From a virus (Duplodnaviria; Heunggongvirae; Uroviricota; Caudoviricetes), in the IMG/VR virus record IMGVR_UViG_3300009702_000014, positions 62,445 through 126,444 of that record: a stretch of 64,000 bases of DNA. One strand, given 5' to 3'. How positions within the stretch are numbered: the first letter of the stretch is position 1; every line of letters begins with the position of its first letter. Under the pieces are notes generated by a model. The model did no database searches and was not told the origin of the DNA. It worked only from the letters and a program-made list of their open reading frames with translations. Positions 2,741 through 44,616 of this stretch are shown here, one piece after another. The position numbers and the translations under genes are program-made.

Positions 2741-2765
2741 ATACCTAAAGTATATGATAGCAGGA

Positions 2766-2780: not shown

Positions 2781-2810
2781 ATTGTCAATGTACTTGTCCT
2801 AGAAGGACTT

Positions 2811-3328: not shown

Positions 3329-3374
3329 TTTACTGCCCTTTCCGTGTGGAGCGGCATAGGAGAATCGACAAATT

Positions 3375-3806: not shown

Positions 3807-3853
3807 ATGTTCAAACTTGCATTCATTACATTTGAACAGTATAATATACTTAT

Positions 3854-4399: not shown

Positions 4400-4401
4400 A
4401 T

Positions 4402-4488
4402 TGGCGGAAGGGGTGGGAATCGAACCCACAGGCCCATTGAGCCCCGAATTTAGCAAATTCGGCAGAGTAGCCAATCTCAATCCCTTCC
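4402..4488 (-). tRNA. tRNA-Ser(GCT), type II
   Basis: acceptor GGAAGGG/CCCTTCC; anticodon stem CGAAT/ATTCG with loop TTGCTAA; long variable arm; T-arm GTGGGTTCGATTCCCAC; GCCA. Confidence 0.65.
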
Positions 4489-12307: not shown

Positions 12308-12722
12308 AGCCCTTAGAACGCCGGGAAACTCTAACATTTCGTTTCATATATAAAAATTTGGAGGCGTCGGCATCGAAGCCGAGTCCAGAATAATGTCCAA
12401 ATAGCCTTCTACGTGTGTAGCACCTTACTCAAGTGCGGAGTCTTACGGGGTTTTGTCTGTTATACATTTGCAGTTATTGTGCGCTAACTGCGGGCGGGGG
12501 CTGCTTTACGCAGCGAGTGGCATACCGTAGCTACCATAGGTAGCAGGGATATAACCGTAATCATTAACGTTGTTAGTTAATTATTTGGGCTTGTTAAGGG
12601 GCCAGCCCACCCCTACACGCGGGTTATTCTTCTTTTGCCCTGTCGAAACCTTGTCGCCCCCATAATTCCTCGGGGTATCCAGGCTCATTGCTTCTTAATA
12701 ATACCACATAATCTACAAGGCG

Positions 12723-13226
12723 TCAAGATAACAAGCTATGTATCGTACCTCTGTTGTTGAAAAAATCTCGGAATGGAGGGAACATTTCTTCGGCATCCAA
12801 CTTCATAAATGCCTCTTCCGTCAGCCATTCCCAGCCCGCTGATTTTTCAGGCTCTATAGTTTGTGGCTCCGAATCTGCATCAGCTTCCACAAAATAGTAA
12901 AATCCAACCCAATGTTGCTTATCTTCATGGACGGGGTATTCATAAACGTACACAAGAGTAAAATCAGACTCGGGAAAATCTAGGCCCGTTTCTTCCAACA
13001 ATTCTCTCTTGGCCGCACTTTGTGTAGTTTCTCCAAACTCCATTGCGCCGCCGGGAAGTTCCCATAAGCCCTTTCCCCCGTAGTCTCCTTTATATAAGCG
13101 CCTGCCTAGCAAAAGCGCATAATCCTCTGCAACTCCCTTAGCTACAATAATGGATACAGATATTCGTGGAAATTCAGGCATTAGGGGGTTTTCCCATCCC
13201 GGATTCAATAGCATCCGACTGACCAA
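12723..13226 (-). CDS. NUDIX hydrolase
   Basis: Nudix box GGAMEFGETTQSAAKRELLEETG. Confidence 0.8.
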   Translation of the reverse strand: MVSRMLLNPGWENPLMPEFPRISVSIIVAKGVAEDYALLLGRRLYKGDYGGKGLWELPGGAMEFGETTQSAAKRELLEETGLDFPESDFTLVYVYEYPVHEDKQHWVGFYYFVEADADSEPQTIEPEKSAGWEWLTEEAFMKLDAEEMFPPFRDFFNNRGTIHSLLS

Positions 13227-17836: not shown

Positions 17837-18430
17837 ACCTCCACCAATGCTACCAACTTGTCCAAGCTGCGCCTGAGTCATGAGCTTGCTAAGCAAGTCC
17901 CACAAACTCTTCCATTCGTGAGTACGAGCGTGTTTATACAGCACGTACTCGCTGTTTTTGACCCAGGTCTTTTCGTGGCGAAAATGCCCCTGCACAATCC
18001 ACTTAAATTCGTCTATCGTTATGGGACGGCTCTGCTTTGGGACACGGGCGTGTCCTGCACCAACGCTAATACGACGGCCCATTTCTCCAAGAATGCGGCT
18101 ACGAAGTCCCTTGTCGGCCTGAGAAAGTCCTTTAATCCCATTAACTCGCATCAAAGACACAGAGCAGGCGGGGTCAGGCCCTACAACATCAGGGTAAAGG
18201 TGCGTACTAGACTCGACTACGCTCCCAATCGGGAAACCATAGCCCGTGTGCATGTCAGGCGTAACAGTGAAGCGTTCCACCCCCGGCAACTCCATAGAAT
18301 TGCGAAGTTGCTCCAATGCAGAGGATTCGACTGCCCCCATGAGGGCATCAGAGAGAAGCATGGTTGCCCATACGTTTCCGTGGCGCATTTTATAAATATT
18401 GCCAGCTTTAAACGGCTGAAATTCATTCAT
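17837..18430 (-). CDS. rtcB: RtcB RNA ligase, exon 1 (N-terminal part)
   Basis: PDMHTGYGFPIGSV and GSIGGG (start of GGGNHF motif); the ORF reads through into the insert (KLTASLSW*). Confidence 0.7.
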
Positions 18431-20416: not shown

Positions 20417-20972
20417 TCACAAAGCGTTCCAGCATTTCCTGGTCGCCCAACTCGTATACAGTTAGAAGGCTACTGAGAGAGTTAACTGTGAACTCCTTAC
20501 TACTAATTGTCTTGCGGAGAATATGACGAATCCTGTCCGTTAGGAATTGGATAGCCCTCTTATGGCTGACCTCTAGCTGTTTTACAGGAATATCTAGAAA
20601 TTCTACATCAAGACTGACGGAGGGAGCATGAATTCTCAAATCTCTAAATTTAATTCTTAGGCAAAGCCTTTCCTCCATGTCTGTAACAATTGAGAATTGT
20701 CCATCTAAGTAGTGCCATTCTCCAGGACCAGTGACAAAAGCCACATCAATCGCTTTAGGCCACACGGAGTCTTCAAACCAGCAACCCATATCACCCTGAA
20801 AATTTTCGATACGAAACTCAGCGTCGTAAATCTCTTGTAAAAGTTCCTCAGTAGGCTTCTCAATAGGGAATGACATAATTATCCTTTCAAAAATAGAGTT
20901 GAGTTGAGTTGGGTCGTAAGCCGGGTTCTGTTTCAATCTAGCATCTATCTTGTCTTGGGTTATTATTCCCAA
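20406..20972 (-). CDS. hypothetical protein
   Basis: 188-aa ORF. Confidence 0.45.
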   Translation of the reverse strand: MGIITQDKIDARLKQNPAYDPTQLNSIFERIIMSFPIEKPTEELLQEIYDAEFRIENFQGDMGCWFEDSVWPKAIDVAFVTGPGEWHYLDGQFSIVTDMEERLCLRIKFRDLRIHAPSVSLDVEFLDIPVKQLEVSHKRAIQFLTDRIRHILRKTISSKEFTVNSLSSLLTVYELGDQEMLERFVIGA

Positions 20973-21275
20973 GCTCTTTGCGGCAATTCTGCCTTGCTGC
21001 CACGTAAGGATTGCCTAGCCATAGGTTATTAGTCCTATGCTGGTGAGTTTTTACCTCACCGCTTTCACCTACCGCTGGTACGCGGTCTCTGTTCGCTGTT
21101 GCTCTTGCTCGCACGTCACCGTGGTCGGGCGTTACCCGATACGCTTTTTATGGCAGCCCGGACTTTCCTCCCCGTAGGGCGCTAGAATGCCCAACTCAAC
21201 TTCGCTCAGTCTACTCTACCATACTATGAGAATAGTGAAAAGTCCCCGACGTATGCCGAGGACTTTATAGGTTCT

Positions 21276-27945: not shown

Positions 27946-28272
27946 ATGAGAAGTATGAAATCTCACGTTTCTCACTCATATATATGTAGAATGGAGACTA
28001 TGGACACGCTTACTGACGAACAAGTTGAGTTTATGGATAAAATTCTTACCTTTCTTCTCTATTTGGAAACCATCACGTTAAGTCAAAACGAAATGATGTC
28101 TCCACAAGCGACGAAAGGCGACCTGATATCTAGTTGGGTGATATACAATAACAACATCACTACCTCAATGGCCAAGGAGATTCTAGACTCTGAGTATATG
28201 AAAGAGTATATCTCCGTCACCAACGAGGCTGAGAGAAAAAAGATTGAGGAAAAGTACCAAGAGGTTAACTAA
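27946..28272 (+). CDS. hypothetical protein (first gene of the plus-strand block; true start may be internal Met METMD)
   Basis: 108-aa ORF. Confidence 0.4.
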   Translation: MRSMKSHVSHSYICRMETMDTLTDEQVEFMDKILTFLLYLETITLSQNEMMSPQATKGDLISSWVIYNNNITTSMAKEILDSEYMKEYISVTNEAERKKIEEKYQEVN

Positions 28273-28817
28273 TGGAATTTATTGTGATGAACAGACAAGA
28301 AGCAGCGAATAGCACACGTCCTGGTGTGTATGGGGGTATCGTCTCCATCAATGACCCCGGCATGAAGATGCCGTGGGAAGTTAAGAATTTCCATAAAGGG
28401 CTCCGGCTTTCATTGTATTTCCATGACATTCGCAAGCCGCTTCCTCGCAATGCTACCCCATTTAAAATAGGGGCGTATCAGCCACCAACAAAGGAGGATG
28501 CGGAAAAGATTATCAATTTCGCTCGCCTTCTCCCCGAAGACGCAAAGGTCATGACACATTGTTACGCGGGCATCAGTCGCTCCAGTGCAGCCGCTATCAT
28601 CATCATTGCTACGCGGTATAACAAAGAAGAGGCGACTCAAAAAATCAAACAACTGGGAGAGGATTACCCTTGGATTTACCCTAACCAACTCCTAATCAAC
28701 TATGCTGCTGAAATTCTTGAATTGCCGTGGCTAGAAGGAACAGTGTCTTGGGCCATCAGTCATGGTATGTACGAGGATGGTTGGGAACCCTTGACAGAAA
28801 GGAAAGTAAATGGGTAA
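28272..28817 (+). CDS. cysteine-based (dual-specificity/PTP-like) phosphatase
   Basis: CX5R P-loop VMTHCYAGISRSS. Confidence 0.6.
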   Translation: MEFIVMNRQEAANSTRPGVYGGIVSINDPGMKMPWEVKNFHKGLRLSLYFHDIRKPLPRNATPFKIGAYQPPTKEDAEKIINFARLLPEDAKVMTHCYAGISRSSAAAIIIIATRYNKEEATQKIKQLGEDYPWIYPNQLLINYAAEILELPWLEGTVSWAISHGMYEDGWEPLTERKVNG

Positions 28818-29187
28818 AAAGAGTAGCGCGAAGAAAAAACTACGCCCATTCAAACAGGCTAATGTGACTTTCCATAAGTGGACAGAGGGGGATAAGGAAT
28901 ACGAGATTCAAGAGATTCACCCCTCAGGCACAGACCCTTCTACCGAAGAAATGGTAAAAGGAATGTCACTAATAGCCAAGTCAGGACCAGAGACTTTCGA
29001 TGGTCTTATGCAAATGCTTATCAAGGCCCTTCCTAAGCGTAGATTTTACGTCATAACCCCAAGAGAATTCGTCCTGGGCGAAACCCCAATCCTTGTGGCA
29101 ACATACCCTGCACTTACAGAAGGACAAACCCGGCGTATAAAAGATGGCATAGAGAGCATTAGGAAGCAGAAGGGGTTGACAACATAA
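28810..29187 (+). CDS. hypothetical protein
   Basis: 125-aa ORF. Confidence 0.4.
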   Translation: MGKKSSAKKKLRPFKQANVTFHKWTEGDKEYEIQEIHPSGTDPSTEEMVKGMSLIAKSGPETFDGLMQMLIKALPKRRFYVITPREFVLGETPILVATYPALTEGQTRRIKDGIESIRKQKGLTT

Positions 29188-29204
29188 CTCTGGCGTGCTA
29201 TACT
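29176..29204 (+). promoter_or_regulatory. near-consensus sigma70-type promoter TTGACA-N17-TATACT
   Basis: TTGACA at 29176-29181, 17-nt spacer, TATACT at 29199-29204. Confidence 0.5.
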
Positions 29205-29210
29205 ATTGAT

Positions 29211-29538
29211 GTTGAAGGAAATAGCAACCAGGAAGTCGCATACTTCGATTACAAATGATACCGGTTATCCGCTGAGTGTAGGATGCGAAAAACCGCGACT
29301 TCAAAAACTTCTAGTACTTTAACCGCATTAAAGCACTCCTCTCTTTGGAGAGTACCACAATAAGTTTTTATAGGGGAGCCATATACTCCCCGCTCACAAA
29401 TAAATAATCTTTAGCAGCCAGGTTTTCGGTTACTTCGATACTAACTCGTCATATAGCACCGAACTCCACTTTTCTCTAAGGATATTTCTTTACGGATTTA
29501 CCCCTGGATGCTACACCATGTATCCAGGGTTTTCTTTT
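29211..29538 (+). ncRNA. candidate ~330-nt structured non-coding transcript directly upstream of the Ro60 orthologue (Y-RNA-like candidate)
   Basis: delimited by the promoter above and an intrinsic terminator; no ORF of 60 aa or more; 8-bp inverted repeat GAAGTCGC..GCGACTTC and several hairpins (GGGGAG..CTCCCC; CTCTC..GAGAG). Confidence 0.3.
29502..29538 (+). terminator. rho-independent terminator
   Basis: CCCTGGAT-12 nt-ATCCAGGG followed by TTTTCTTTTG. Confidence 0.6.
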
Positions 29539-29717: not shown

Positions 29718-31274
29718 ATGAACAAACTAAACACTACCAGACAACCAAGAACCCGTTATGTTAACACCTACGAGGGCGGTCGCGGCCTCAAGGTCGGCGC
29801 TGAGGAAGAATTGGCGTTTCTAACCTTCGCTAGCAATTTCCATGACAAGTTTTATGAAACCGGTAAGGCTACTCTAAAGCGTATGGAGGCTCTTGTTAAC
29901 CAGTCGCGCCCGGAGTTCGTCCAACAGCTAGCCCGTGTTGCTCGTCAAGAGTTCAACATGCGTGCTACCCCAGCAGCTTTGACGGCTTTCTATACCTTGA
30001 AGCATGGACAGCCAGATAATGATAAGCTTATCACTGACGCTTTCTTCCGTGGCGACGAAATCGGTGACTACCTAGCCGTAGTCGAATCTGCCTCCCGTAA
30101 GGGTAAGGTTATTCCTTCTGCCGTTCGTTTTGCTCGTCGCGTTTTGCAGGAACAGCTAAATGAGCGTAAGGCTCTGCGTTATGCTCGTTCTGGACGTGCC
30201 TGGAGCCTAGCTAAGATTATTCGCCTAAGCCACGCCCGCATGGGTGCTACCCCAGCCCAGGAAGCTCTCTTTAATTTCGTGCTCGCATGGAATGGTGAAG
30301 GTAGCTTGACAAAGGCGTGGGAAACGCTGCCCTCCGCACAGCGCAAGTTGCTTCCGACTATCAAGCAGGCTGTCGAAGGTGGAGACGCCGACGGCAGCAT
30401 CAGTTGGGAACGTACTATTTCTGCTGCTGGTGCAGAGAAGGACTGGACTAGGGTTGTAGATAAGATGGGCTACATGGCCCTTCTACGTAACCTTCGTAAC
30501 TTCCTCCAGGACGTTCCGGCTAAGAATACGGAATTCTGGAACACGGTTACTCGTAGGCTAGCTGACGAGGAAGAAGTCTTGGCTTCTAAGCAATTCCCAT
30601 TCCGTTTCTACTCTGCATACAAGGCTATTAAGGATATGCAGCACGCTAAGACTCACGCGGTCATTGATGCGCTGTCTACTGCCTTGGACTACTCGGCACG
30701 CAATCTCCCGGAATTCCCGGAAAAGACCCTTATCGTTATCGACGCTTCCGGTTCTATGAGTAGTGGTTTGCTTTCCGACAAGTCTGAAATGTCTTATCGT
30801 GAAGTCGGGGAAGTTTTGGGTGCAGCTCTATTCACTACGACAGGTGCAGATGTTGTACACTTCGGTACGACTGCGTACAAGCACAACGGCCTCGACGTAA
30901 ACAGTGGTGTTCTAAACACCCTTAATGAGTTTGCTACGGTCAACCACAGCACGGTAAGGGGCATCTATATGGGTCGGGGTGGCCGCAAGATGGTCGGCCA
31001 CAGCACAGAGCTTGGTTCCATTCAAAGCGTTGTAAATGTTAACGACTATGATGCTATCATCGTTTTCTCTGACATGCAGCTAGCTGATAGTGCCAGCAGC
31101 ACCCTTGGTAACTACAAGGGTAAGCTCTACACTGTCAATATGGCGGGCTATGAGGCCCAGCTAGACCTACGTAGCAACGATGTTGTTGCTGTCGGGGGTT
31201 GGAGCGAAGCTGTTCTCCGGCTTATGTCGCTTATCACACGTAACCAGCTTATCAAGTACATCCTGGACTACTAG
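29718..31274 (+). CDS. rsr: Ro60-like RNA-binding protein (TROVE domain plus C-terminal vWA domain)
   Basis: vWA MIDAS TLIVIDASGSMSS; 518 aa with N-terminal region resembling TROVE as recalled; strong RBS AAAGGAGA. Confidence 0.6.
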   Translation: MNKLNTTRQPRTRYVNTYEGGRGLKVGAEEELAFLTFASNFHDKFYETGKATLKRMEALVNQSRPEFVQQLARVARQEFNMRATPAALTAFYTLKHGQPDNDKLITDAFFRGDEIGDYLAVVESASRKGKVIPSAVRFARRVLQEQLNERKALRYARSGRAWSLAKIIRLSHARMGATPAQEALFNFVLAWNGEGSLTKAWETLPSAQRKLLPTIKQAVEGGDADGSISWERTISAAGAEKDWTRVVDKMGYMALLRNLRNFLQDVPAKNTEFWNTVTRRLADEEEVLASKQFPFRFYSAYKAIKDMQHAKTHAVIDALSTALDYSARNLPEFPEKTLIVIDASGSMSSGLLSDKSEMSYREVGEVLGAALFTTTGADVVHFGTTAYKHNGLDVNSGVLNTLNEFATVNHSTVRGIYMGRGGRKMVGHSTELGSIQSVVNVNDYDAIIVFSDMQLADSASSTLGNYKGKLYTVNMAGYEAQLDLRSNDVVAVGGWSEAVLRLMSLITRNQLIKYILDY

Positions 31275-32446: not shown

Positions 32447-32657
32447 GCACCCCTTTCGAAGGCCCGGCCCTAAAAGCTGGGGCTTTTCTTTTAAGGAGAA
32501 GCATGTCAGACGAACGCTATTGTTTTCGACAAGACGACTCTTCGGAGTATAGTTTTGTTGACCCGCAATACGAATGAGGTTATAATGGGACTGTGGATTA
32601 CAACATATAAGTATAAGGTAAGGAGGCAAAGAATGGAGTTTCTAAAGGAGGCCGACG

Positions 32658-32933
32658 ATGAGGGTGTACCTAATCGACGTTACGACTCATCCGGCCACTA
32701 TCAGGATAGGTAATTATAATCGTTCCAAAGACAAGAAGATTGCTGACGTAGACGTGATTCATGGGACGAATGGTGCATCATGGAATGAGCACCGTACATG
32801 GAACAAAGAAATGATGTATACCTCGTTCAAAGGGGCAAAACAATTTCTTTCTAATTATTATATTTCAAAAGGACAGCTAGATATAGCTAAGTATTTTGCA
32901 GAATTAGTAGAGGAAGACTATGATTTCGGATAA
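32658..32933 (+). CDS. hypothetical protein
   Basis: 91-aa ORF. Confidence 0.35.
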   Translation: MRVYLIDVTTHPATIRIGNYNRSKDKKIADVDVIHGTNGASWNEHRTWNKEMMYTSFKGAKQFLSNYYISKGQLDIAKYFAELVEEDYDFG

Positions 32934-33201
32934 TAGTGTGTTTAACTATCTTGTTATCGACTATGCTGCAACAGGAGAAGGCAGAAGCTTTTGGTACATC
33001 CGTGTCCCGGCGTCATGGTCCCTTGAAAGAAAACTTAAATGTCTACAACATACTTTCTTCTCTGATGAAAGCGCCTGGGAATTTTATAAGATAGACGTAG
33101 TGGAATATACTAACTATGAAGATGTATGTAGAGTCTATGCTTTCATGCCATTATCTCTTGATTCCCCGGCGAACATGTTTATTAGGTGGGAGCCACTATG
33201 A
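32920..33201 (+). CDS. hypothetical protein
   Basis: 93-aa ORF. Confidence 0.35.
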   Translation: MISDNSVFNYLVIDYAATGEGRSFWYIRVPASWSLERKLKCLQHTFFSDESAWEFYKIDVVEYTNYEDVCRVYAFMPLSLDSPANMFIRWEPL

Positions 33202-33725
33202 TTGTAAATGTTATAGATGTAGAAGCTACCTGCTGGCAAGGAAAACCACCGGTAGCTTCTGAAATTATTGAGATTGGTATTGCTGAGATTAACCTCGACA
33301 CGCATGAGCTTATCAATGCCAATGGTATGTTTGTTAAACCTATTCTTTCAACTTCTCTTAGCCCGTTTTGCACAGAGCTAACGGGTCTTACTGACGAGGA
33401 GATTTTTGAAAACTCCGCAGCGTATGATTTTTCTAAGAGTGCTCAGGTTTTGATTGAGGAATATAACTCCGTAAAACGCCCCTGGTTGAGTTGGGGGCAG
33501 TATGACTTCAATCAGTTCCAACGAGACGCACAGTTACATGGCATCAAAAATCCTATGGGGCGTAACCATCTTAACCTAAAGCTTCTGTACTCGCTTAAAA
33601 CCGGTAAAAAACAAGTCGGAATGGATAAGGCTCTTAAAGAGCTGGGCATGGAGCTTATTGGGCAGCACCACAGTGGGCAGGATGATGCCCACAATATTGC
33701 TCGGATTGCACTTGAAATTCTATGA
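33186..33725 (+). CDS. DEDDh-type 3'-5' exonuclease
   Basis: Exo I VIDVEATC, Exo II WGQYDFNQF, Exo III HSGQDDAHNIARI. Confidence 0.6.
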   Translation: MGATMIVNVIDVEATCWQGKPPVASEIIEIGIAEINLDTHELINANGMFVKPILSTSLSPFCTELTGLTDEEIFENSAAYDFSKSAQVLIEEYNSVKRPWLSWGQYDFNQFQRDAQLHGIKNPMGRNHLNLKLLYSLKTGKKQVGMDKALKELGMELIGQHHSGQDDAHNIARIALEIL

Positions 33726-34651
33726 TTCTTTCAGGTACAGGGCACCGCCCTAATAAGCTAGTAGCACACGGGAAGCAAGCATACCCTAATCCCAACACTT
33801 ATGGTTTTGGATATGCTTATTCTCGTCTTATAGACTTGGCTTATGCCTATCTGCTTAAATTAAAGCCTGCAAAAGTTGTCTCAGGGATGGCTTTGGGATG
33901 GGATTTGGCGCTTGCTCAGGCTGCTCTTTATGCAGAGATTCCCTATATAGCTGCTGTGCCGTTTAGGGGTCAAGAGTCCCAATGGCCCGAAAGTAGTCAA
34001 AAATATTACCGTGCTGTTCTTTCTATGGCCGAATCTATTGAATATATCTCTCCTGGAGAGTACTCGGCGTGGAAAATGCAAAGCCGCAATAAATGGATGG
34101 TGGACCATAGCGACACCGTATTAGCTTTATGGAATGGGACTCCCGGAGGAACAGCCAACTGCATAAAGTATGCCGAAGAGACCAAGATTCACATTATTAA
34201 TGCCTGGGATAGTTGGGATAATCACAAAGAGGATAGATTTGAATTTTCTAACTTCGGTTTGGCAGATGTGCCCTATGGTGGTATAATATACCCATCGGTA
34301 GAGAACTTCTACCAAGCAATGAAAACAACGAATCCTGTGATGCGCAAGCATATAGCTAGCGTCTCCCCGGAGGAAGCAAAAGCCTTGGGCCGAAAGGTGA
34401 CGTTGAGAACAGATATTGATTGGGATAACATTAAGGAAGAAATCATGAGGACTGGCTTGCATATTAAGTTCTCAGAGAATAAGGAGTGGCTTCGTAAGCT
34501 ACTTGCCACGAAGGGAAAGCCCCTTATCGAATGGAATACGTGGGATGATACATTTTGGGGAAAAGATATTAAGTCCGAACAAGGTGATAATCGGTTAGGT
34601 ACCCTCCTAGAAGAGATACGGGAGGTTCACCGGCCACCAGGGGAGGAGTAA
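33722..34651 (+). CDS. two-domain protein: N-terminal Rossmann-like (possibly SLOG/YpsA-like) domain fused to a C-terminal NADAR (YbiA-like) domain
   Basis: C-terminal YPSVENFYQAMK...AKALGRKV...DWDNIKEEIMRTGLHIKFSEN...LIEWNTWDDTFWGKD..GDNRLGTLLEEIR matches the NADAR pattern as recalled; start overlaps the exonuclease stop. Confidence 0.55.
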   Translation: MILSGTGHRPNKLVAHGKQAYPNPNTYGFGYAYSRLIDLAYAYLLKLKPAKVVSGMALGWDLALAQAALYAEIPYIAAVPFRGQESQWPESSQKYYRAVLSMAESIEYISPGEYSAWKMQSRNKWMVDHSDTVLALWNGTPGGTANCIKYAEETKIHIINAWDSWDNHKEDRFEFSNFGLADVPYGGIIYPSVENFYQAMKTTNPVMRKHIASVSPEEAKALGRKVTLRTDIDWDNIKEEIMRTGLHIKFSENKEWLRKLLATKGKPLIEWNTWDDTFWGKDIKSEQGDNRLGTLLEEIREVHRPPGEE

Positions 34652-34654
34652 TTA

Positions 34655-35041
34655 ATGGATTTTCTGAATGCCTTAGAACTTTCGCTAGCCACAGAGAAGC
34701 ATATGTGGCGTTTTCAAGAAGAAGCATATGCGGCGGCTGCCAGAAAACGCGGCTATACCTTTGTCCACACGCCTACCGAGACTGCTATTCTCCTAGAGAT
34801 TACCACAGATGAGAACAACCATGTTGTGTCTCAACAACTATCCTTTATCGAAGTTATGATGGTACAGGGTAAATATAGACAGTTAGCTAATTCCTCAAAT
34901 AATACCACTGTAGAAATACCTGAGGACAGTGACATTTATGCAAATCTGATGGAGATTCGTGATGTAGAGAAGCTATTTGAACATGTCAACCATACTAGTG
35001 ATTTTATTAACCACGTTATGTCCAGTTTCAAAAACCCGTAG
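34655..35041 (+). CDS. hypothetical protein
   Basis: 128-aa ORF. Confidence 0.4.
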   Translation: MDFLNALELSLATEKHMWRFQEEAYAAAARKRGYTFVHTPTETAILLEITTDENNHVVSQQLSFIEVMMVQGKYRQLANSSNNTTVEIPEDSDIYANLMEIRDVEKLFEHVNHTSDFINHVMSSFKNP

Positions 35042-35223
35042 ATTGGAATAGATGGAGAGCCTATATTCCAGGAAATGTTAACGGCAGTTGTAATACGGAA
35101 TTAGAAGCCGCTAAAAAGAACGGAACATATCATGAAAACAGTACTTAAAACAGATTTCATAGACTATTATGATTTTTTTTTGACACATTAATAATCCCGG
35201 AACCACACCACACCTTCAAGCGT

Positions 35224-35772
35224 ATGGGGCGTACTAATTTTAGTCGTCAGGCTGCATTGAATTTTCTGGATGATTGGGGGTATGTCTACACTGTTCCTCA
35301 CGGCTATCTCGGAGATTTAGGAGAGCAGTTTGGCTTTGACCAGGAAGCAGTCATATACCTAGACCCATATGCCCATCAGGGCGATGGTAAAACAGTCATG
35401 AAAATCAGAGAAGCAGTCAAGCTATATCCTGACTCTTATGCTTCTTTGTTTTACCCTCGAAATTATAGCATCAGACAGCTTCAAATAGGCAGACAAGACA
35501 TTTTTCTCAAATACTCCTCTGACCACCCGTGGAAGTCTAATGTAGGTAACGTACAAATTGAAAAGGTTAGTGCGGCCCCAAGGATGGGAAGTTATAACGA
35601 GTACTTTCCCATGTTTGCCATAGATTACATTCCCTTCACAGAATTTGAACTTCTGGCCGTAGATTTAAATACAGCCCCCCTCATCAAATTCACACCTGTA
35701 GAAGATATAATGAGCCCTAAAGAAATTGTTAATGAAATTCGTGGATGGATGGAGTGGAAATATGGTAACTGA
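35224..35772 (+). CDS. hypothetical protein
   Basis: 182-aa ORF. Confidence 0.4.
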   Translation: MGRTNFSRQAALNFLDDWGYVYTVPHGYLGDLGEQFGFDQEAVIYLDPYAHQGDGKTVMKIREAVKLYPDSYASLFYPRNYSIRQLQIGRQDIFLKYSSDHPWKSNVGNVQIEKVSAAPRMGSYNEYFPMFAIDYIPFTEFELLAVDLNTAPLIKFTPVEDIMSPKEIVNEIRGWMEWKYGN

Positions 35773-36238
35773 TAGATTAGGTAAACCGATGAAGCCAGGG
35801 GATATTATAGCCTACAGAGGCCGTTCGGGAGATATCGGGGTCTTAAATCTAAGAATAATTCTGGATACCAAAGAGGAGCAGAGGCCAAGCCCTGATTTTA
35901 AAGGCAGAATGGATACAGTATCCACAATCTACATTGTAAAGGCTGACCTAGAAAATCCCCGCATTGAAATTCCCATTAGGAATGATGCAGACCTGGAAGC
36001 TCTCAAACAACATCCCAAACTAAGCGATGTCCGCCGCAAGTATGATAATCCTTATATCGCCTGGGCCAGGGACTTGTCTCGGGAGGAGTTTTCTGCCAAA
36101 CGAGCACAGGTATACTTTCCTGAGAGAGCAGCAATAGTCGATTTACCCCCTCAAACACCAGATGAGCCTCTAGAAATAAAGGCATTGAGGATGGGAAGAG
36201 AGAAGGTTTTGAATGGTGAAATACGAAGAAAGCGATAA
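35726..36238 (+). CDS. hypothetical protein
   Basis: 170-aa ORF, likely starting at internal Met MVTDRLG. Confidence 0.4.
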   Translation: MLMKFVDGWSGNMVTDRLGKPMKPGDIIAYRGRSGDIGVLNLRIILDTKEEQRPSPDFKGRMDTVSTIYIVKADLENPRIEIPIRNDADLEALKQHPKLSDVRRKYDNPYIAWARDLSREEFSAKRAQVYFPERAAIVDLPPQTPDEPLEIKALRMGREKVLNGEIRRKR

Positions 36239-36794
36239 GAGCCTCTTTGACCCTGAATTAGAATTAGACATGATTTTCAATCCAGTTAATTGCAAGGGCG
36301 TCGCTGGCAAGGGGCTGGCAAAAGAATTCAAAGAGAGATATCCTACGGGTTTTGCTACCTATCGACAGCAATGTCAATCCTCTATGATGATGCCAGACGC
36401 AACAGGGAAGCTTCGTAAAGTTCCTAACTTTCAGCCCGGTGATGTTCTTCACTTTGTTGATATGACACCCCAGGAATATGAGCAAATTAATCAGGCAGAA
36501 ACAGCAGACGAAGCAGTAAAGCTTGCCGAAAGAGTGCGCAAGCATATCGTGTATTTCCCAACAAAGAACCACTGGAAACGCCCCTCTCAATTGAACTTCA
36601 TTGTAAAAGGAATGAGGAATGTCCGTAGTCTCTTGGAACGCGAGGATATCCAGGAACAAGTGCATCGTATAGGAATTCCTGCGTTAGGCTGCGGATTAGG
36701 GGGTTTGAATTGGGCCGATGTTAGGCGTACAATAGAGGAAGCTCTAGCTGGCCTAGAGGCTAATTATACAGTAGTTTTATTTCCTCCTCAATAA
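36213..36794 (+). CDS. macro-domain (ADP-ribose binding/processing) protein
   Basis: IFNPVNCKGVAGKGLAKEF and IGIPALGCGLGGLNWADV match macro-domain glycine-rich motifs. Confidence 0.5.
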   Translation: MVKYEESDKSLFDPELELDMIFNPVNCKGVAGKGLAKEFKERYPTGFATYRQQCQSSMMMPDATGKLRKVPNFQPGDVLHFVDMTPQEYEQINQAETADEAVKLAERVRKHIVYFPTKNHWKRPSQLNFIVKGMRNVRSLLEREDIQEQVHRIGIPALGCGLGGLNWADVRRTIEEALAGLEANYTVVLFPPQ

Positions 36795-36847
36795 GCCCCA
36801 CAAAGGGGCTTTTGTTTTGCTCGTGATGGCTATGCTATAATAATCTT

Positions 36848-41496: not shown

Positions 41497-44400
41497 TCAA
41501 GTCTGTGGAAAGATATCCTTCAAGTTTATAGTCTGTTTGTTTTTCAACTCTTTCCAGGAACCGAGGCCGATTGTTTTAGAGTACAACTCTTCTGAGTATT
41601 TTTGCTTTTCATCATCAGTAGCAACACCTGTTTTGAGCTTGGCAGCTAATTCCTGTTGCTTGGAGTTAATGCCAGCGGTAAGAATGTCTACGAATGGCCA
41701 GTCGTATGTCAGGAGATAGACCGCCTTGGCAATAACATCGGCAATGTCCTTACCACCGTTAGCCGGGTGGTCTACCTTTGCTGGGTTCTTACTATTTGAG
41801 ACTATTATATGCCCGTCTTCTAGTAGAAAATTATGCGTACCATCAACCGTTATATCATACATAGCGGTTGGGGAAACAGTAACAGTCTCTACACAAGTAA
41901 CTGTACGATTGGCTGCGTCTAATTGCACCTTATTCATACCCAATAAACTAGTACCTGGGATTAACTCCTGAGCTTCTGTCCACTCGCCGTTACTGGTCAT
42001 GTATTTATGTTCTGGTGTAGATTTAATAACGGTCCCATCCTCAAGGGTCACTTTTGTTATCTGCGTTGTATGATACGTTATTCTGGCAGAATGAGCTAGT
42101 GCAGGCACAAAACCATCTTGAGCAGAATCATAGGAATATACCCAGAACGATTCTTTATCAGAATTAGCTAATTCCTCTAGCGTGGGAGTTGTACCATCCA
42201 ACAGGCATATCCTGGTATCTCCTGTAAAACATCTATCCTCCCGCAATTCTCGTAATTCTTCATAAACGATTGGATGCCACGGCAAATCAATCCCGCCATT
42301 GCTTTCTTTCTCCCCTTTTCCATTAGACGGCGGGGCTTCACCAAATAGAGCGTCTCGTAAGGCTGTATAATCCCTGGTTTCTACTAGGTTAAAATCTTTG
42401 ACCAGGGCGTCTCTGTAGGTTTTAGCAATCCATTGCGTGAGAGAGGCTGAATTATGACTTAGCAAGCCCTCTGCGATGTATGTATGGTCCCCATCAACCT
42501 CCATATGTACTATCGTTGAGGTAGATTCTACAATGTCAACTATCTTTACCGAATCTATAAAATCTGGTTTTTTAAGTTTAGAAACTAATTCTTTCAGTGT
42601 TTCTTGTTTTCTATCACTTAGAAATCCTACAACCTCAGAAAAGGGTATAATCTGACTGCCTAAAATAGTAACTTTATATCCATCTTTACGATATGCCTTT
42701 ACGCCCAACTGTAATAGTAATAGTTGTATATCTTTGGATACCTTTTCCGATACCGTAGTAAATTCAATCTTAGAATTTTCAATATCTATACTAGCTGAAT
42801 TTTCATAGAAGGCAGATAGAAAAGCCCCAATATCATTAGAAGTTCCATTAAAAGATAGTTGATAATCTTTAGGGGTTAATTTCGAAATTAGATATCCGAA
42901 CACAAGTGCTTCGGGTATATTTTCATGATTTCCAAAATGAGCCTGTTCTCCGTAAACTATGCTATCCCCAATAGAAAGGTTTTTTGCCTCTACAAAGCCT
43001 TTATTTTTAACATAAAGTGGGTGATTTCTTGTAACTTCTAGTTCAAGCCCAGTATCCATCTTGACAATATAAGAAGGAACGTTATCCTTACTTTCTAATT
43101 CTTGTACAGTATTTAAGCCTTCTTTTCCTACGACCGTATCCCCCACAGAAAGAGTCTCCACATTCCTATACCCTTCCTCTGTTAATACCTTAGACCCTTT
43201 AGCAATGCAATTCCAACCATCAAAAGAGAAATATTTGATGTTGTATCCATACTGGTCCTTGAGCTTGGTTATTAGTTTCTCAATAGCTACCATCTGTACC
43301 TGACCCTCTTCGAACATACGGCCAGTGAAACGGAACGCTAGGTCGATAATAGGACGTACATATTTACGGCCCCGCTCGTCTCGAACAATCTCTCGGTGAG
43401 CTAGCGCAATACCGTAACCGTCCCCACCGTTGACTTCGGAGCCAAGCGCGGGGTCTCCACAGAATACGTATGTCTGGTTTGGGTCGCCTACTTTTGCAAT
43501 AGGCATATCATAGGGTTCTAGCTGGTTAGACTCTCCATCTTCGCCTACGTATATGTGCTCGGAAAGTGGGGAACCTCGCCATTCTCTGTGTGAAATCTTG
43601 TTTTTCCATTCTTCTGTGCCTACTTCATGCGGGTCATAAGGAAGAGGCCAATCCAGAACCCACGTTCTATTCCAATTCATAGCATTCTTGATTCGCTTGG
43701 AATCCTTAATCCAGGAGTCAACAAAACTTCCTGTGACCACAGAGCCATACATACATGCGGCTTTTTCTGGATTTTCTTTGAAGTAGGATTCAAAGTCTTC
43801 CCTTGTGCGTGCAGGATGAAACTCCCAGGAGGCGTATTTTCTTGCATATACGTGAGAAAAGTTGCCAGCATTAGAATAAAATTCATTAATTTTACCAGAG
43901 GAGCCAACATAACGCTGATATGAGATTACCATAACCTTTTCATGGCCTTCGAAACGCGACTGTGAAGAAGTGCGAAGGGTATCTACAATCTTGTCTACGC
44001 TGTGAAATTCAACATCGTCAACCTCGTCAGCCATTGCTACGAGCAAGTCGTAACCTTCGATACCCCCTGCTCGACTGTTGGCCGACATGATTTCGATATT
44101 CTTTGGAAAGACCACCTGTGTTTTTTGAATATCTGTTTCAGGATTAAACCCAAATTGTCTGAAAGCTTTATCCCCCGAGGCTCTTAAAATATTTGCCAAG
44201 GGGTCGAAAAAGTTCTTTCTGGCCTGAGTCTCGTTAATAGCTACATTGATAAGGGTAATAGCCTTTGCGCTGTTATGATTCAGGTACTTATGAGGGTCAT
44301 ACATGCACAGCAGCTTATACACGATATAAAGGAAAAGTACGCCAGAGGACCAATTCTTTCCTCCCCCCTTTCCTACGAAAAGAACAAAGAAATTGATGCC

Positions 44401-44616
44401 ATTTTCCAAATCTGAGCCTTTTTCCAAGAAATCCTTCTGTACGTCAGAAAGGCCCCATAAATCCTGTCCCAGGTACTCATGGCTCAAGACAAAGGTTTCC
44501 AGGTCCACCGGTTTAATTCGGTAAACTTCCCCTTCGGACTCTTTGGCCGCATGTTCGCTCTTACGAAGCAAGTCACCCCAAGTCTCAGTGGCCTTAAACT
44601 CATTTCTTTTTGCCAT
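41497..44616 (-). CDS. terL: terminase large subunit interrupted by two inteins
   Basis: ATPase Walker A VGKGGGKNWS and Walker B LLVAMADEVDD; nuclease Asp motifs FCGDPALG and SFDGWN; 1039 aa against about 640 aa expected for exteins. Confidence 0.7.
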   Translation of the reverse strand: MAKRNEFKATETWGDLLRKSEHAAKESEGEVYRIKPVDLETFVLSHEYLGQDLWGLSDVQKDFLEKGSDLENGINFFVLFVGKGGGKNWSSGVLFLYIVYKLLCMYDPHKYLNHNSAKAITLINVAINETQARKNFFDPLANILRASGDKAFRQFGFNPETDIQKTQVVFPKNIEIMSANSRAGGIEGYDLLVAMADEVDDVEFHSVDKIVDTLRTSSQSRFEGHEKVMVISYQRYVGSSGKINEFYSNAGNFSHVYARKYASWEFHPARTREDFESYFKENPEKAACMYGSVVTGSFVDSWIKDSKRIKNAMNWNRTWVLDWPLPYDPHEVGTEEWKNKISHREWRGSPLSEHIYVGEDGESNQLEPYDMPIAKVGDPNQTYVFCGDPALGSEVNGGDGYGIALAHREIVRDERGRKYVRPIIDLAFRFTGRMFEEGQVQMVAIEKLITKLKDQYGYNIKYFSFDGWNCIAKGSKVLTEEGYRNVETLSVGDTVVGKEGLNTVQELESKDNVPSYIVKMDTGLELEVTRNHPLYVKNKGFVEAKNLSIGDSIVYGEQAHFGNHENIPEALVFGYLISKLTPKDYQLSFNGTSNDIGAFLSAFYENSASIDIENSKIEFTTVSEKVSKDIQLLLLQLGVKAYRKDGYKVTILGSQIIPFSEVVGFLSDRKQETLKELVSKLKKPDFIDSVKIVDIVESTSTIVHMEVDGDHTYIAEGLLSHNSASLTQWIAKTYRDALVKDFNLVETRDYTALRDALFGEAPPSNGKGEKESNGGIDLPWHPIVYEELRELREDRCFTGDTRICLLDGTTPTLEELANSDKESFWVYSYDSAQDGFVPALAHSARITYHTTQITKVTLEDGTVIKSTPEHKYMTSNGEWTEAQELIPGTSLLGMNKVQLDAANRTVTCVETVTVSPTAMYDITVDGTHNFLLEDGHIIVSNSKNPAKVDHPANGGKDIADVIAKAVYLLTYDWPFVDILTAGINSKQQELAAKLKTGVATDDEKQKYSEELYSKTIGLGSWKELKNKQTINLKDIFPQT
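41791..42228 (-). mobile_element. intein 2 in terL (146-aa mini-intein, C797-N942, +1 Ser)
   Basis: begins CFTGDTRICLLDG; ends FLLEDGHIIVSN|S. Confidence 0.55.
42448..43209 (-). mobile_element. intein 1 in terL (254 aa, residues C470-N723, +1 Ser), with putative endonuclease region
   Basis: begins CIAKGSKVLTEEG immediately after nuclease motif FDGWN; ends IAEGLLSHN|S. Confidence 0.6.

What the first reader, a model, noticed from the sequence alone, without database searches (positions are those of the whole stretch)
33186..36794. Operon-like plus-strand cluster: DEDDh exonuclease / NADAR fusion / three unknown ORFs / macro domain (ADP-ribose processing or counter-defence candidate)
- **Gene order:** 33186..33725 (DEDDh exonuclease) overlaps 33722..34651, whose C-terminus fits the NADAR (YbiA-like) pattern. 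The N-terminus of that protein is a Rossmann-like domain, possibly of the SLOG/YpsA type. Then come three uncharacterised ORFs (34655-36238). Then a macro-domain protein (36213..36794) with overlapping starts.
- **Established knowledge:** Macro and NADAR domains both hydrolyse ADP-ribose adducts. NADAR has been reported to reverse guanine ADP-ribosylation, and macro domains remove protein or nucleic-acid ADP-ribose.
- **Related gene:** A Nudix hydrolase (12723..13226) is also encoded elsewhere in the window.
- **Inference:** The block may be a multi-enzyme module reversing host ADP-ribosylating defence (DarT-like toxins) or processing NAD-derived signals.
- **Sandwiched ORFs:** ORFs 35224..35772 and 35726..36238 have no recognisable motif. 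They are the most likely place for a novel activity.
Basis: partly seen in the sequence, partly recalled or inferred. Interest (0 to 1): 0.72.

Follow-up and report, generated by a model that had tools for sequence, protein, structure and literature searches.

The report
Phage operon of ADP-ribose-removing enzymes
A large uncultured phage carries one tightly packed operon combining look-alikes of two bacterial antitoxins that strip ADP-ribose off DNA, an RNA-type exonuclease and a previously unrecognised ATP-grasp enzyme whose gene is interrupted at a run of nine T's; the first two resemble recently proven phage counter-defence genes, the last is the new lead.

Summary
Profile searches support an ERI-1-like DEDDh exonuclease (33186-33725), a YpsA-SLOG + NADAR fusion (33722-34651) and a macro protein (36213-36794). 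The macro is specifically DarG/AdfM-type. The genes lie between a sigma-70-like promoter (32558-32586) and an intrinsic terminator (36793-36811), with overlapping stop/start codons.

The counter-DarT reading matches two recent experimental precedents: AdfN (phage NADAR, anti-DarTG1) and AdfM (phage DarG2-like macro, anti-DarTG2). This makes the block a new variant of a known kind. Function here is untested, and the NADAR is YbiA-type.

New findings:
- "ORF 35224-35772" is the 3' part of a gene that starts at 35132. The gene is broken by a frameshift at a T9 run, the only homopolymer of 8 or more bases in 64 kb.
- In independent phage lineages this family sits beside macro, NADAR or SLOG genes more often than a PhoH control does. 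It also sits beside ribonucleotide reductase genes.
- ORF3 and ORF5 are lineage-restricted ORFans.

The parts
32558..32586 (+). Sigma-70-like promoter (TTGACC-17-TATAAT, 11 of 12). It lies just after the Band7 gene terminator (32463-32484) and is the predicted start of the transcription unit.
32658..32933 (+). Small ORF (91 aa), first gene of the predicted unit. No family match.
32920..33201 (+). Small ORF (93 aa). It overlaps both neighbours. No family match.
33186..33725 (+). DEDDh 3'-5' exonuclease of the ERI-1/3'hExo type. D11, E13, D107, H162 and D167 are present. The public gene call uses a start 12 nt downstream.
   Evidence: Pfam RNase_T 1.5e-12; PDB ERI1 3.9e-20; KapD model 3.6e-16, below cutoff; motif positions
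33722..34651 (+). Fusion protein. N-terminal YpsA-family SLOG domain (about residues 1-165) plus a C-terminal YbiA-type NADAR N-glycosidase domain (about 166-305). E194/K201 pair and E270 are present.
   Evidence: Pfam NADAR 1e-24, YpsA 2.5e-12; PDB YbiA 1.4e-17, NADAR 8BAU 3.9e-6, YpsA 1.9e-5; TIGR02464 81.9 bits, above the 73.7 cutoff; motif positions
34655..35041 (+). ORF3 (128 aa), an ORFan. One 67%-identical relative in 1.8 billion representatives. Replaced by two unrelated ORFs in the syntenic phage L002.
35132..35772 (+). Gene for a compact ATP-grasp enzyme of a sequence-orphan family. Full length is 213 aa after a -1 shift or one extra U.
35173..35181 (+). T9 run at the frame junction. 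It is the only A/T run of 8 or more bases in the window, which otherwise avoids such runs. It is present in two strain variants.
35762..36238 (+). ORF5 (158 aa), an ORFan. Its only relatives are two tandem paralogues at the same position in L002. The structure model is unusable.
36213..36794 (+). DarG/AdfM-type (TARG1-like) macrodomain protein. N26 and K118 (FPTK) are conserved. It has an insertion of about 37-50 aa (residues about 58-109) and no DarT-binding C-terminal domain.
36793..36811 (+). Intrinsic-terminator-like hairpin (7 pairs, 5 G-C) followed by a T-tract, starting at the macro stop codon. Predicted end of the unit.

Best explanation
The block is one transcription unit (about 32.6-36.8 kb) of a roughly 203-kb uncultured phage. 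Its likely job is to protect phage nucleic acid from host ADP-ribosyltransferase defences.

**Inferred from homology**
- The last gene encodes an orphan DarG2-like macrodomain (AdfM-like). It would remove ADP-ribose from thymidine in ssDNA.
- The SLOG-NADAR fusion would cut N-glycosidic ADP-ribose linkages, for example on guanine as AdfN and DarG1 do. The SLOG domain would bind an ADP-ribose or NAD-derived nucleotide, or target the enzyme.

**Speculative**
- The ERI-1-like exonuclease trims damaged or modified 3' ends.
- The ATP-grasp enzyme is an ATP-dependent ligase (or kinase) acting on a nucleotide-related or protein substrate.

**Expression of the ATP-grasp gene.** In this phage the full-length protein can only be made if RNA polymerase adds one U at the T9 run, or if ribosomes slip -1 on U UUU UUU. 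Otherwise the gene is off.

**Shown here:** domain identities, conservation of catalytic residues, operon signals, the ATP-grasp fold, the frameshift and the neighbour enrichment. **Inferred:** substrates, the counter-defence role, and how (or whether) the ATP-grasp gene is expressed.
For: **Macro protein**
- NCBIfam antitoxin_DarG 3.4e-37 and PADLOC DarG 2e-39.
- PDB DarG macrodomains 2.7e-21 and 2.5e-19, against TARG1 6e-4.
- PhiKZ AdfM 1e-24, with N26 matching AdfM N23 (the residue changed in the paper's N23A construct) and the FPTK lysine present.
- AdfM removes DarT2 ADP-ribose from phage DNA (PMC13309987).

**NADAR**
- Pfam 1e-24, with the E194/K201 pair at the family spacing (PMC11543638).
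- Divergent phage NADARs counter DarTG1 (PMC11825919).
- A YbiA-subfamily NADAR hydrolyses guanine-ADPr (PMC11543638).

**Operon**
- Promoter 32558-32586, terminator 36793-36811, and overlapping gene ends.
- The gene order exo / SLOG-NADAR / ... / ATP-grasp / ORF5 paralogues / macro is conserved at 47-61% amino-acid identity in phage contig L002.
- SLOG + NADAR + Macro neighbourhoods, and SLOG-exonuclease fusions, are a described phage pattern (PMC9503650).

**ATP-grasp**
- Invariant D165, D178-x-N180 and K87.
- Beside macro, NADAR or SLOG in 8 of 31 non-window lineages, against 0 of 68 PhoH control loci.
- 4 of 31 against 0 of 68 with unbiased single-sequence queries, p = 0.008.
- Macro abuts the ATP-grasp gene in L042 (stop/start overlap; Pfam Macro 1.8e-27). 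NADAR lies 259 bp downstream in L025.
Against: - No experiment has been done, and the host and its defence repertoire are unknown.
- No DarT-like or other ART gene was seen in the part of the contig covered by precomputed Pfam (window 3.4-45.8 kb). The target enzyme is therefore purely inferred.
- The NADAR is YbiA-type. One paper regards that clade as housekeeping and found it rare in phages (PMC11825919).
- ERI-1 relatives are RNases, and the window is rich in RNA-repair genes.
- In the relative L005 the NADAR gene sits with RtcB, RNA ligase and a phosphoesterase instead.
- The macro and SLOG genes are stand-alone in other phages.
- The ATP-grasp family also neighbours NrdG/NrdD and RNR genes, so its link may be to nucleotide metabolism in general.
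- The enrichment control (PhoH loci) may sample a different kind of phage.
- The ATP-grasp gene may simply be a pseudogene here.
Confidence: 0.55

Rival explanations
1. RNA repair or RNA quality-control module. The exonuclease trims RNA 3' ends. Macro and NADAR clear ADP-ribose-derived by-products, or ADP-ribosylated RNA ends, made during tRNA or mRNA repair. They would work alongside the phage's Ro60, RtcB, tRNAs, tmRNA and RNase P RNA.
For: - The exonuclease's closest solved relatives are ERI-1 exoribonucleases.
- A TROVE/Ro60 gene lies 2 kb upstream on the same strand.
- RtcB with a group I intron, a tmRNA, an RNase P RNA and 12 tRNAs are in the window.
- In the relative L005 a stand-alone NADAR lies in a cluster with RtcB, RNA ligase, DNA ligase and Metallophos.
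- The literature proposes Macro and NADAR roles in NAD-dependent RNA repair (PMC9503650, PMC7824862).
Against: - No KptA/Tpt1 or 2H phosphoesterase, the enzymes that would create the ADPr>p / Appr-1''-p substrates, is in the annotated 3.4-45.8 kb.
- RtcB ligation makes no ADP-ribose by-product (established knowledge).
- The macro matches DarG models far better than Appr-1''-p phosphatases (2.7e-21 against about 6e-4, partial).
- Ro60 and Band7 each have their own terminator and are separate units.
Confidence: 0.2
2. Degradation of small diffusible NAD-derived immune signals or toxins (cADPR isomers, ADPr-1''P and the like), as proposed in general for phage Macro/NADAR/SLOG/Nudix sets. SLOG would act as sensor or N-glycosidase, and the ATP-grasp enzyme would perhaps recycle a product.
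For: - SLOG + NADAR + Macro co-occurrence and fusions in phages are interpreted this way in PMC9503650.
- The YbiA-type NADAR acts on small-molecule N-glycosides (TIGR02464 above cutoff).
- A Nudix gene is present elsewhere in the window.
- The SLOG domain resembles YpsA and the ShosA antitoxin.
Against: - The macro subtype is the DNA-acting DarG/AdfM type.
- No NAD salvage or reconstitution genes (NadV, NMNAT, Adps/Namat types) are in the annotated part of the window.
- The Nudix gene is 20 kb away on the other strand.
- No activity is known for this SLOG clade.
Confidence: 0.15
3. No functional module. The genes are unrelated accessory genes that happen to be neighbours in an early-gene region, and the ATP-grasp gene is a decaying pseudogene.
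For: - The whole + strand region, not just this block, is syntenic with L002 and L005.
- ORF3 is swapped for unrelated ORFs in L002.
- In L005 the ATP-grasp gene lacks a SLOG-NADAR neighbour and only a 62-aa macro remnant follows it.
- Macro and SLOG are solitary in other phages.
- The frameshift has no downstream stimulatory structure (z = -0.27) and is absent from relatives.
Against: - A promoter and terminator bracket the block, and its genes are translationally coupled.
- Macro, NADAR and SLOG recur next to the ATP-grasp family in unrelated lineages but not in controls.
- The out-of-frame N-terminal segment still keeps all nearly invariant family residues.
- T9 is kept in two strain variants.
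Confidence: 0.1

Closest known systems
AdfM (PhiKZ gp104), a phage DarG2-like macrodomain that counters DarTG2 (PMC13309987)
   Same: Stand-alone macrodomain of the DarG/TARG1 type without the DarT-binding domain. Pairwise E = 1e-24. The N23 equivalent (N26), the FPTK lysine and the LGC..GGL motif are conserved. It is encoded by a large phage.
   Different: Only 31% identity. There is a 37-50-aa insertion after the first motif. Here the gene is the last in an operon with NADAR, SLOG, exonuclease and ATP-grasp genes. There is no evidence of a phage nucleus, and activity is untested.
AdfN (T4 gp30.3 and divergent phage NADARs), orphan antitoxin-like enzymes against DarTG1 (PMC11825919)
   Same: A phage-encoded NADAR domain with the conserved E/K catalytic pair. 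It is an orphan, with no adjacent DarT.
   Different: - This NADAR has the YbiA-family Glu, not the His of T4-like AdfN or the Asp of DarG1.
- It passes the YbiA-type TIGR02464 cutoff.
- It matches Pfam Phage_30_3 only weakly (1.3e-4, below cutoff).
- It is fused to an N-terminal SLOG domain.
- No fusion of this kind covered 80% or more of the query in 50,697 phage records.
DarTG toxin-antitoxin systems (DarG2 macro antitoxin; DarG1 NADAR antitoxin)
   Same: Both antitoxin enzyme types are present side by side. The macro hits the curated DarG models.
   Different: No DarT toxin is nearby. The macro covers only positions about 66-149 of the 329-338-position DarG models and lacks the C-terminal toxin-binding half. 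Its scores are below NCBIfam's full-length cutoff (128.5 against 250).
SLOG-Macro-NADAR neighbourhoods and fusions, and SLOG-exonuclease fusions, in DNA viruses (Iyer et al. 2022, PMC9503650)
   Same: The same set of domains, in a phage, in a region with host-manipulation and RNA-repair genes. The pattern was described computationally.
   Different: That survey does not report an ATP-grasp partner; 'ATP-grasp' appears there only for DNA ligases. It favours small-molecule substrates, whereas the macro here is the DNA-acting subtype.
RimK / LysX / ArgX and other ATP-grasp carboxylate-amine ligases; R2K clade of compact ATP-grasp enzymes (PMC4431377)
   Different: - At 213 aa it has no pre-ATP-grasp domain.
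- It has DxN instead of ExN.
- The strand-2 lysine is apparently replaced by a K in an HRGEGK loop.
- No member hits any Pfam ATP-grasp, DUF4343 or D123 model.
- Identity to any solved or viral model is 19% or less.
Transcriptional slippage sites such as Shigella mxiE (run of U's, +1 U restores the frame) and 9A/9T sites in IS elements (PMC1088944)
   Same: Two overlapping ORFs together encode one full-length homologue. The junction lies in a 9-T run, and one extra U restores the frame.
   Different: The site is not conserved in relatives, whose genes are intact and lack a T run. No mRNA data exist. It could equally be a recent slippage mutation or a phase-variable T10/T9 tract.

Membership tests
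DarG/AdfM-type (TARG1-like) macrodomain | Macro fold or profile match, closest to DarG rather than to other macro clades | tested here: met
   Pfam Macro 3.6e-12. NCBIfam antitoxin_DarG 3.4e-37, PADLOC DarG 2e-39. PDB 5M3I 2.7e-21 and 5M31 2.5e-19, against TARG1 6e-4.
DarG/AdfM-type (TARG1-like) macrodomain | Catalytic residues: the Asn of the N-terminal VN..GVMG motif (AdfM N23, changed in the paper's N23A construct) and the Lys of the FPTK motif | tested here: met
   N26 aligns with AdfM N23. K118 lies in FPTKNHW. The role of the lysine (TARG1 K84 / DarG K80) is from my own knowledge.
DarG/AdfM-type (TARG1-like) macrodomain | C-terminal DarT-binding domain and an adjacent darT gene (true DarG antitoxin) | tested here: not met
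   The protein is 193 aa and matches only profile positions about 66-149 of 329-338. Its score of 128.5 is below the 250 cutoff. No ART gene is among the neighbours. It is therefore an orphan, AdfM-like, and not a DarG.
DarG/AdfM-type (TARG1-like) macrodomain | Hydrolysis of thymidine-linked ADP-ribose on ssDNA | not testable with these tools
   Needs an enzyme assay.
NADAR superfamily | Profile match above the curated threshold, and the conserved E...K pair (E43/K50 in PnNADAR, E88/K95 in E. coli C7 NADAR) | tested here: met
   Pfam NADAR 88.1 bits, cutoff 35.1. E194 and K201 in SVENFYQAMK have the same 7-residue spacing (PMC11543638).
AdfN(T4)-like or DarG1-like NADAR subfamilies | Subfamily-diagnostic residue at the PnNADAR E125 position: His in T4-like phage NADARs, Asp in DarT1-associated NADARs, Glu in the YbiA family | tested here: not met
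   Glu (E270 in IEWNTWDD) aligns with the YbiA Glu. TIGR02464 (YbiA-type) scores 81.9, above the 73.7 cutoff. Phage_30_3 scores 22.2, below the 36 cutoff. It is YbiA-type.
AdfN(T4)-like or DarG1-like NADAR subfamilies | Guanine-ADPr DNA glycohydrolase activity | not testable with these tools
   Shown for one YbiA-subfamily member (PnNADAR, PMC11543638), but not for this clade.
SLOG superfamily, YpsA family | Profile match above the curated threshold | tested here: met
   Pfam YpsA 47.5 bits, cutoff 27.7. PDB YpsA 2NX2 1.9e-5, with weaker DprA/ShosA matches.
DEDDh exonuclease, ERI-1/3'hExo branch | The five DEDDh residues, and closest similarity to ERI-1 | tested here: met
   D11, E13, D107, H162 and D167 are in the expected motifs. 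PDB ERI1 3.9e-20 over residues 7-178. RNA versus DNA preference was not testable.
ATP-grasp superfamily | ATP-grasp fold (RAGNYA plus kinase-like domains) | tested here: met
ATP-grasp superfamily | Acidic residue in kinase-like strand 4 plus a terminal ExN motif (Mg/ATP binding) | tested here: met
   Invariant D165, D178 and N180 in 50 sequences (a DxN variant). The spacing of 13 matches DdlB D257/E270/N272 (my own knowledge). No residue-level structural superposition was available.
ATP-grasp superfamily | Lys at the end of RAGNYA strand 2, followed by an ssxGbGl loop; Lys in the linker from the pre-ATP-grasp domain | tested here: inconclusive
   The only invariant basic residues are K87 and R115. 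K87 sits at the end of an H-R-G-E-G-K loop rather than before it. There is no pre-ATP-grasp domain, so there is no linker lysine.
ATP-grasp superfamily | Membership of a described sequence family (Pfam RimK, ATP-grasp_x, DUF4343 = R2K.2, D123 = R2K.1) | tested here: not met
   None of the 50 members hit any such model at E up to 1. There is no NCBIfam or PADLOC hit and no PDB profile hit.
Programmed transcriptional slippage or -1 frameshift gene | Two overlapping ORFs that together encode a full-length homologue, joined at a slippage-prone run of 9 or more A/T | tested here: met
   T9 is the only run of 8 or more bases in a window that is depleted of such runs (1 observed against 5.8 expected).
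Programmed transcriptional slippage or -1 frameshift gene | Conservation of the recoding site among relatives, or a stimulatory element | tested here: not met
   L002 and L005 homologues are intact, reading DHWFD and DHHFD with no T run. The downstream fold gives z = -0.27. The site is kept only between two 99.96%-identical variants.
Programmed transcriptional slippage or -1 frameshift gene | Heterogeneous mRNA, or a full-length protein product | not testable with these tools
   Needs reads, RNA-seq or proteomics.

The most novel reading that the evidence does not exclude
The compact ATP-grasp family is a new enzymatic partner of phage ADP-ribose-processing genes (macro, NADAR, SLOG). It would carry out an ATP-dependent ligation or phosphorylation step in a pathway that detoxifies or recycles ADP-ribose adducts, or that modifies the host ADP-ribosyltransferase. 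In this phage its expression would be gated by polymerase slippage, or phase variation, at a T9/T10 tract.
Probability: 0.18. Interest if true: 0.75.

Novelty: new variant of a known kind. Interest (0 to 1): 0.55.

Why it matters
Phage orphan antitoxin-like hydrolases against DarTG were demonstrated only in 2025-2026, and each was shown singly: AdfN (NADAR) and AdfM (macro). An operon that carries both enzyme types could cover both guanine- and thymine-directed DNA ADP-ribosylation. It also names candidate accessory factors, namely the SLOG domain, the ERI-1-like nuclease and the ATP-grasp enzyme. AdfN(T4) was reported to need an unknown phage co-factor for full activity.

Separately, a family of more than 200 ATP-grasp proteins that is invisible to sequence profiles now has a fold, a predicted active site and a non-random genomic context. 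Its function can therefore be tested directly.

Tried and rejected
- **Nucleotide search of the region against 50,697 phage records.** No match.
- **Pfam and PHROGs on ORF3, ORF4 and ORF5.** Nothing. NCBIfam and PADLOC also gave nothing for them.
- **Neighbours of the ORF4 homologue in Moorella phage MTATph1.** No NADAR or macro by Pfam; an RNR large subunit lies nearby.
- **ORF5.** The profile search found only its own lineage, and AF2 gave pLDDT 39. I ran no fold search on it and assign no function.
- **ORF3.** The exhaustive HMMER search found one close relative and two weak repeat matches. No inference is drawn.
- **R2K-clade membership of ORF4.** Rejected: there is no DUF4343 or D123 hit and no pre-ATP-grasp domain.
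- **Automatic pattern design for the metagenome and genome scans.** This failed. A hand-made YYDHWFD pattern worked, but about two-thirds of its hits were chance matches.
- **Two 'macro' hits from my iterated local profile.** L011 was kept only as weak (BLASTP 0.007). L015 was accepted at motif level.
- **Search for more SLOG-NADAR fusions in IMG/VR.** It returned only SLOG-only relatives.
- **Neighbourhood of the Pseudanabaena phage macro gene.** No partner genes.
- **Frameshift-stimulating RNA structure downstream of T9.** None.
- **Rfam search of the gap upstream of Ro60.** No hit.
- **The afdb50 fold library.** It was unavailable.
- **Two contig look-ups with guessed gene starts.** Both failed, so window 45.8-64 kb lacks precomputed Pfam annotation.

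Full report
**What the window is.** The window is part of a 203,461-bp metagenomic contig (ENA ERZ27249683 k141_484103), to which it is 99.96% identical. Over 20.5 kb the two differ by 6 SNPs and one 3-bp indel, so they are two strain variants. It is phage-like. It carries 12 tRNAs, rIIB-like, PhoH and RNR genes, and many ORFans. It has no nucleotide-level relative among 50,697 phage records.

**Checking the observation.**
- *Exonuclease, 33186-33725.* RNase_T, 1.5e-12.
- *Fusion protein, 33722-34651.* NADAR 1e-24 over residues 168-301, and YpsA-SLOG 2.5e-12 over residues 69-144.
- *Macro protein, 36213-36794.* Macro, 3.6e-12.
- *Nudix, 12723-13226(-).* Confirmed.

**Refined identities.**
- *Exonuclease.* It is closest to ERI-1/3'hExo exoribonucleases (3.9e-20) and has all five DEDDh residues.
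- *NADAR half.* It is YbiA-type. Its best solved relative is YbiA at 1.4e-17, against 3.9e-6 for the NADAR structure 8BAU. It passes the curated cutoff of TIGR02464, the riboflavin-intermediate N-glycosidase model. It carries the Glu that marks the YbiA family, rather than the Asp of DarT1-associated NADARs or the His of T4-like phage NADARs (PMC11543638).
- *Macro protein.* It is DarG-type. It scores 3.4e-37 against NCBIfam antitoxin_DarG and 2e-39 against PADLOC DarG. It matches the M. tuberculosis and T. aquaticus DarG macrodomain structures at 2.7e-21 and 2.5e-19, against 6e-4 for TARG1. It lacks DarG's toxin-binding C-terminal half and carries an extra insertion of about 37-50 residues.

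**Transcription unit.** On the + strand, the Ro60 gene and the Band7 gene each end in their own terminator-like hairpin. A strong sigma-70-like promoter follows at 32558-32586 (11 of 12 matches). The next good terminator, at 36793-36811, starts at the macro stop codon. Between them lie eight ORFs: two small unknowns, the exonuclease, SLOG-NADAR, ORF3, ORF4, ORF5 and the macro gene. Most have overlapping or nearly abutting ends. These are consensus matches, not proof.

**ORF4 is a frameshifted ATP-grasp gene.**
- *The family.* A single-sequence search found only the gene itself and one 48% relative. A three-sequence profile then found more than 200 proteins, all without a Pfam domain and typically 210-240 aa long. 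They share a conserved N-terminal motif, SDFxDYYDHWFD, which the 182-aa window ORF lacks.
- *The break.* That motif is encoded in the 182-nt 'gap' upstream, from ATG 35132, but in another frame. The two frames meet at a T9 run, 35173-35181. Adding one T, which is equivalent to a -1 ribosomal slip on U UUU UUU, gives a 213-aa protein. That protein aligns end to end with the family and keeps every nearly invariant N-terminal residue.
- *How unusual the T9 run is.* It is the only A/T run of 8 or more bases in the 64 kb. The window as a whole is depleted of long runs: 5 runs of 7 or more against 19 expected, and 1 run of 8 or more against 5.8 expected. T9 is present in both strain variants, so a one-off assembly error is unlikely.
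- *Limits.* Relatives have an intact gene without a T run, and no stimulatory RNA structure follows the site.
- *Three readings remain open.* These are a recent slippage mutation (pseudogene), a phase-variable T10/T9 tract, or expression through transcriptional slippage. The last has precedents at 9-T/9-A runs and in mxiE, where an added U restores the frame (PMC1088944).

**The fold of ORF4.** With a 50-sequence alignment, AlphaFold2 gave pLDDT 94 and pTM 0.89.
- Foldseek against PDB and against viral models agrees. Identity is 19% or less throughout.
- Invariant D165, D178-x-N180, K87 and R115 fit the Mg/ATP-binding constellation of the superfamily (PMC4431377), here as a DxN variant.
- The protein has no pre-ATP-grasp domain.
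- None of 50 members hits any Pfam model at E up to 1. A family profile finds nothing in PDB sequences. NCBIfam and PADLOC are silent.
- It is therefore not an R2K-clade member by sequence or architecture. It is a sequence-orphan ATP-grasp family.

**Is the ATP-grasp gene linked to the ADP-ribose genes?** I collected 83 loci and found a family member in 46. These collapse to 34 groups at 85% identity, or 32 lineages once the window, L002 and L005 are counted as one. Outside the window lineage the neighbours are:
- *L042.* A Pfam-verified macro gene whose stop overlaps the ATP-grasp start.
- *L015.* A DarG-type macro two genes downstream.
- *L025.* NADAR 259 bp downstream, Pfam 4.9e-25.
- *L006.* NADAR directly upstream, separated only by an inserted transposase.
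- *L017, L052, L058.* SLOG genes (YAcAr, Pfam 5.5e-10 in L058), plus a further macro in L058.

With iterated local profiles, 8 of 31 non-window lineages have such a neighbour, against 0 of 68 PhoH control loci scanned the same way (p about 5e-5). Those profiles were trained on the test set. With unbiased single-sequence queries the figures are 4 of 31 against 0 of 68 (p = 0.008).

There are caveats. PhoH loci may represent different phage types. The family is also repeatedly next to NrdG/NrdD or an RNR large subunit. The safest statement is that the family belongs to nucleotide-centred accessory modules and has a real but non-exclusive association with ADP-ribose-processing genes. Iyer et al. 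(PMC9503650) describe SLOG/Macro/NADAR neighbourhoods and SLOG-exonuclease fusions, but no ATP-grasp partner.

**ORF3 and ORF5.** ORF3 has one 67% relative among 1.8 billion representatives. In L002 it is replaced by two unrelated ORFs. ORF5's only relatives are two tandem paralogues at the same position in L002, and its model is unusable at pLDDT 39. Both remain unknown. Neither shows evidence of being the 'novel activity'.

**Comparison with known systems.**
- *Phage NADARs.* AdfN (T4 gp30.3, plus divergent versions in T5-like and Vequintavirinae phages) removes DarT1-made ADP-ribose from DNA and defeats DarTG1 (PMC11825919).
- *A phage DarG2-like macro.* AdfM (PhiKZ gp104) removes DarT2-made ADP-ribose and defeats DarTG2 (PMC13309987). 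The window macro aligns with AdfM at 1e-24. The Asn mutated in that paper's N23A construct corresponds to N26 here. This macro type occurs in 140 phage records, including PhiKZ-like phages and Pseudanabaena cyanophages.

The macro gene is therefore a new member of a known kind. The NADAR is a less certain analogue because it is YbiA-type. A YbiA-subfamily NADAR from Phytophthora does hydrolyse guanine-ADPr (PMC11543638), but Johannesman et al. regard YbiA-like proteins as housekeeping and found them rare in phages.

The combination in one operon of both hydrolase types, a SLOG fusion, an ERI-1-like nuclease and an ATP-grasp gene is, as far as I could find, undescribed. No fusion protein covering 80% or more of the SLOG-NADAR query exists in the phage records.

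**Rival readings.** The strongest rival is RNA repair. The exonuclease is RNase-like. The window carries Ro60, an intron-split RtcB, a tmRNA, an RNase P RNA and tRNAs. In the relative L005 the NADAR sits with RtcB, RNA ligase and a phosphoesterase. Against it, no KptA/Tpt1 or 2H enzyme is in the annotated 3.4-45.8 kb, and the macro is the DNA-acting subtype. Degradation of small NAD-derived signals, and coincidental adjacency, are the other rivals. They are weighed in the rival section.

**Verdict.** I rate it a new variant of a known kind. The most useful new leads are the orphan ATP-grasp family and its T9-interrupted copy.

Noticed in passing
window 20901-21198 (-): Bacterial class A RNase P RNA match (173 bits, gathering score 100, full model span, compact at 298 nt) inside a phage-like contig. 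The huge-phage papers returned by my literature search mention tmRNA but not RNase P RNA. It may be an unusual phage-encoded ribozyme.
   Followed up: partly
window 12358-12661 (-): Phage-encoded tmRNA (90.8 bits, gathering score 47), lying next to the Nudix gene.
   Followed up: no
window 29205-29530 (+), upstream of the TROVE/Ro60 gene 29718-31274: An ORF-free stretch of about 326 nt, bracketed by a strong promoter-like site (29176-29204, 11 of 12 with TG) and a 10-bp terminator hairpin (29502-29529). It folds far better than shuffles (z = -3.67). It has no Rfam match even at E up to 1. It is a candidate Y-RNA-like partner of the phage Ro60.
   Followed up: partly
window about 16049-18430 (-): The RtcB RNA ligase gene is split into two halves (206 and 223 aa) by a group I intron (Rfam 68.4 bits at 17643-17846). 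A LAGLIDADG-like ORF lies on the opposite strand.
   Followed up: no
window 605-4488 (-): An array of 12 tRNA genes: Tyr, Ala x2, Glu, Ser x3, Lys x2, Asn, Asp and Gly.
   Followed up: no
window 41497-44616 (-): A 1039-aa protein with an MJ0330_N domain and intein / LAGLIDADG hits. The homologue in L002 is 641 aa without the intein, so the window copy appears to carry an intein insertion.
   Followed up: no
window 28272-28817 (+): A 181-aa protein with weak dual-specificity/PTP phosphatase hits (DSPc 1.9e-4, below cutoff), two genes upstream of Ro60. It could be an RNA- or protein-phosphatase of the same early region.
   Followed up: no
L005 7626-7814 (related phage contig): Directly after the intact ATP-grasp gene lies a 62-aa ORF that matches only the N-terminal 59 residues of the macro profile (8e-9). 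It looks like a decayed remnant of the macro gene in that relative.
   Followed up: partly
L002 2928-3600 (related phage contig): ORF5 is represented by two tandem, highly diverged paralogues (120 and 107 aa). They share the N-terminal DRLGxxxxxGDIIA motif and a C-terminal LNG(T/E)(I/L) motif, a sign of rapid local duplication and divergence of an ORFan.
   Followed up: partly
L006/L007 5267-6961: An IS-type DDE transposase has inserted between the NADAR and ATP-grasp genes of an unrelated Firmicute-type phage or prophage. That element also carries MazEF-like and RadC genes nearby.
   Followed up: no
window 30762-30764: A 3-bp indel (AGT) inside the Ro60 gene, plus 14 SNPs over about 42 kb, distinguish the window from the ENA contig. 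At least two strain variants of this phage have therefore been assembled.
   Followed up: yes
window 60829-63990 (-): A 1053-aa ribonucleotide reductase. Its closest matches are in 640-735-kb uncultured huge phages (36% identity). Only residues 320-1053 align, so the N-terminal 320 residues are unexplained.
   Followed up: no
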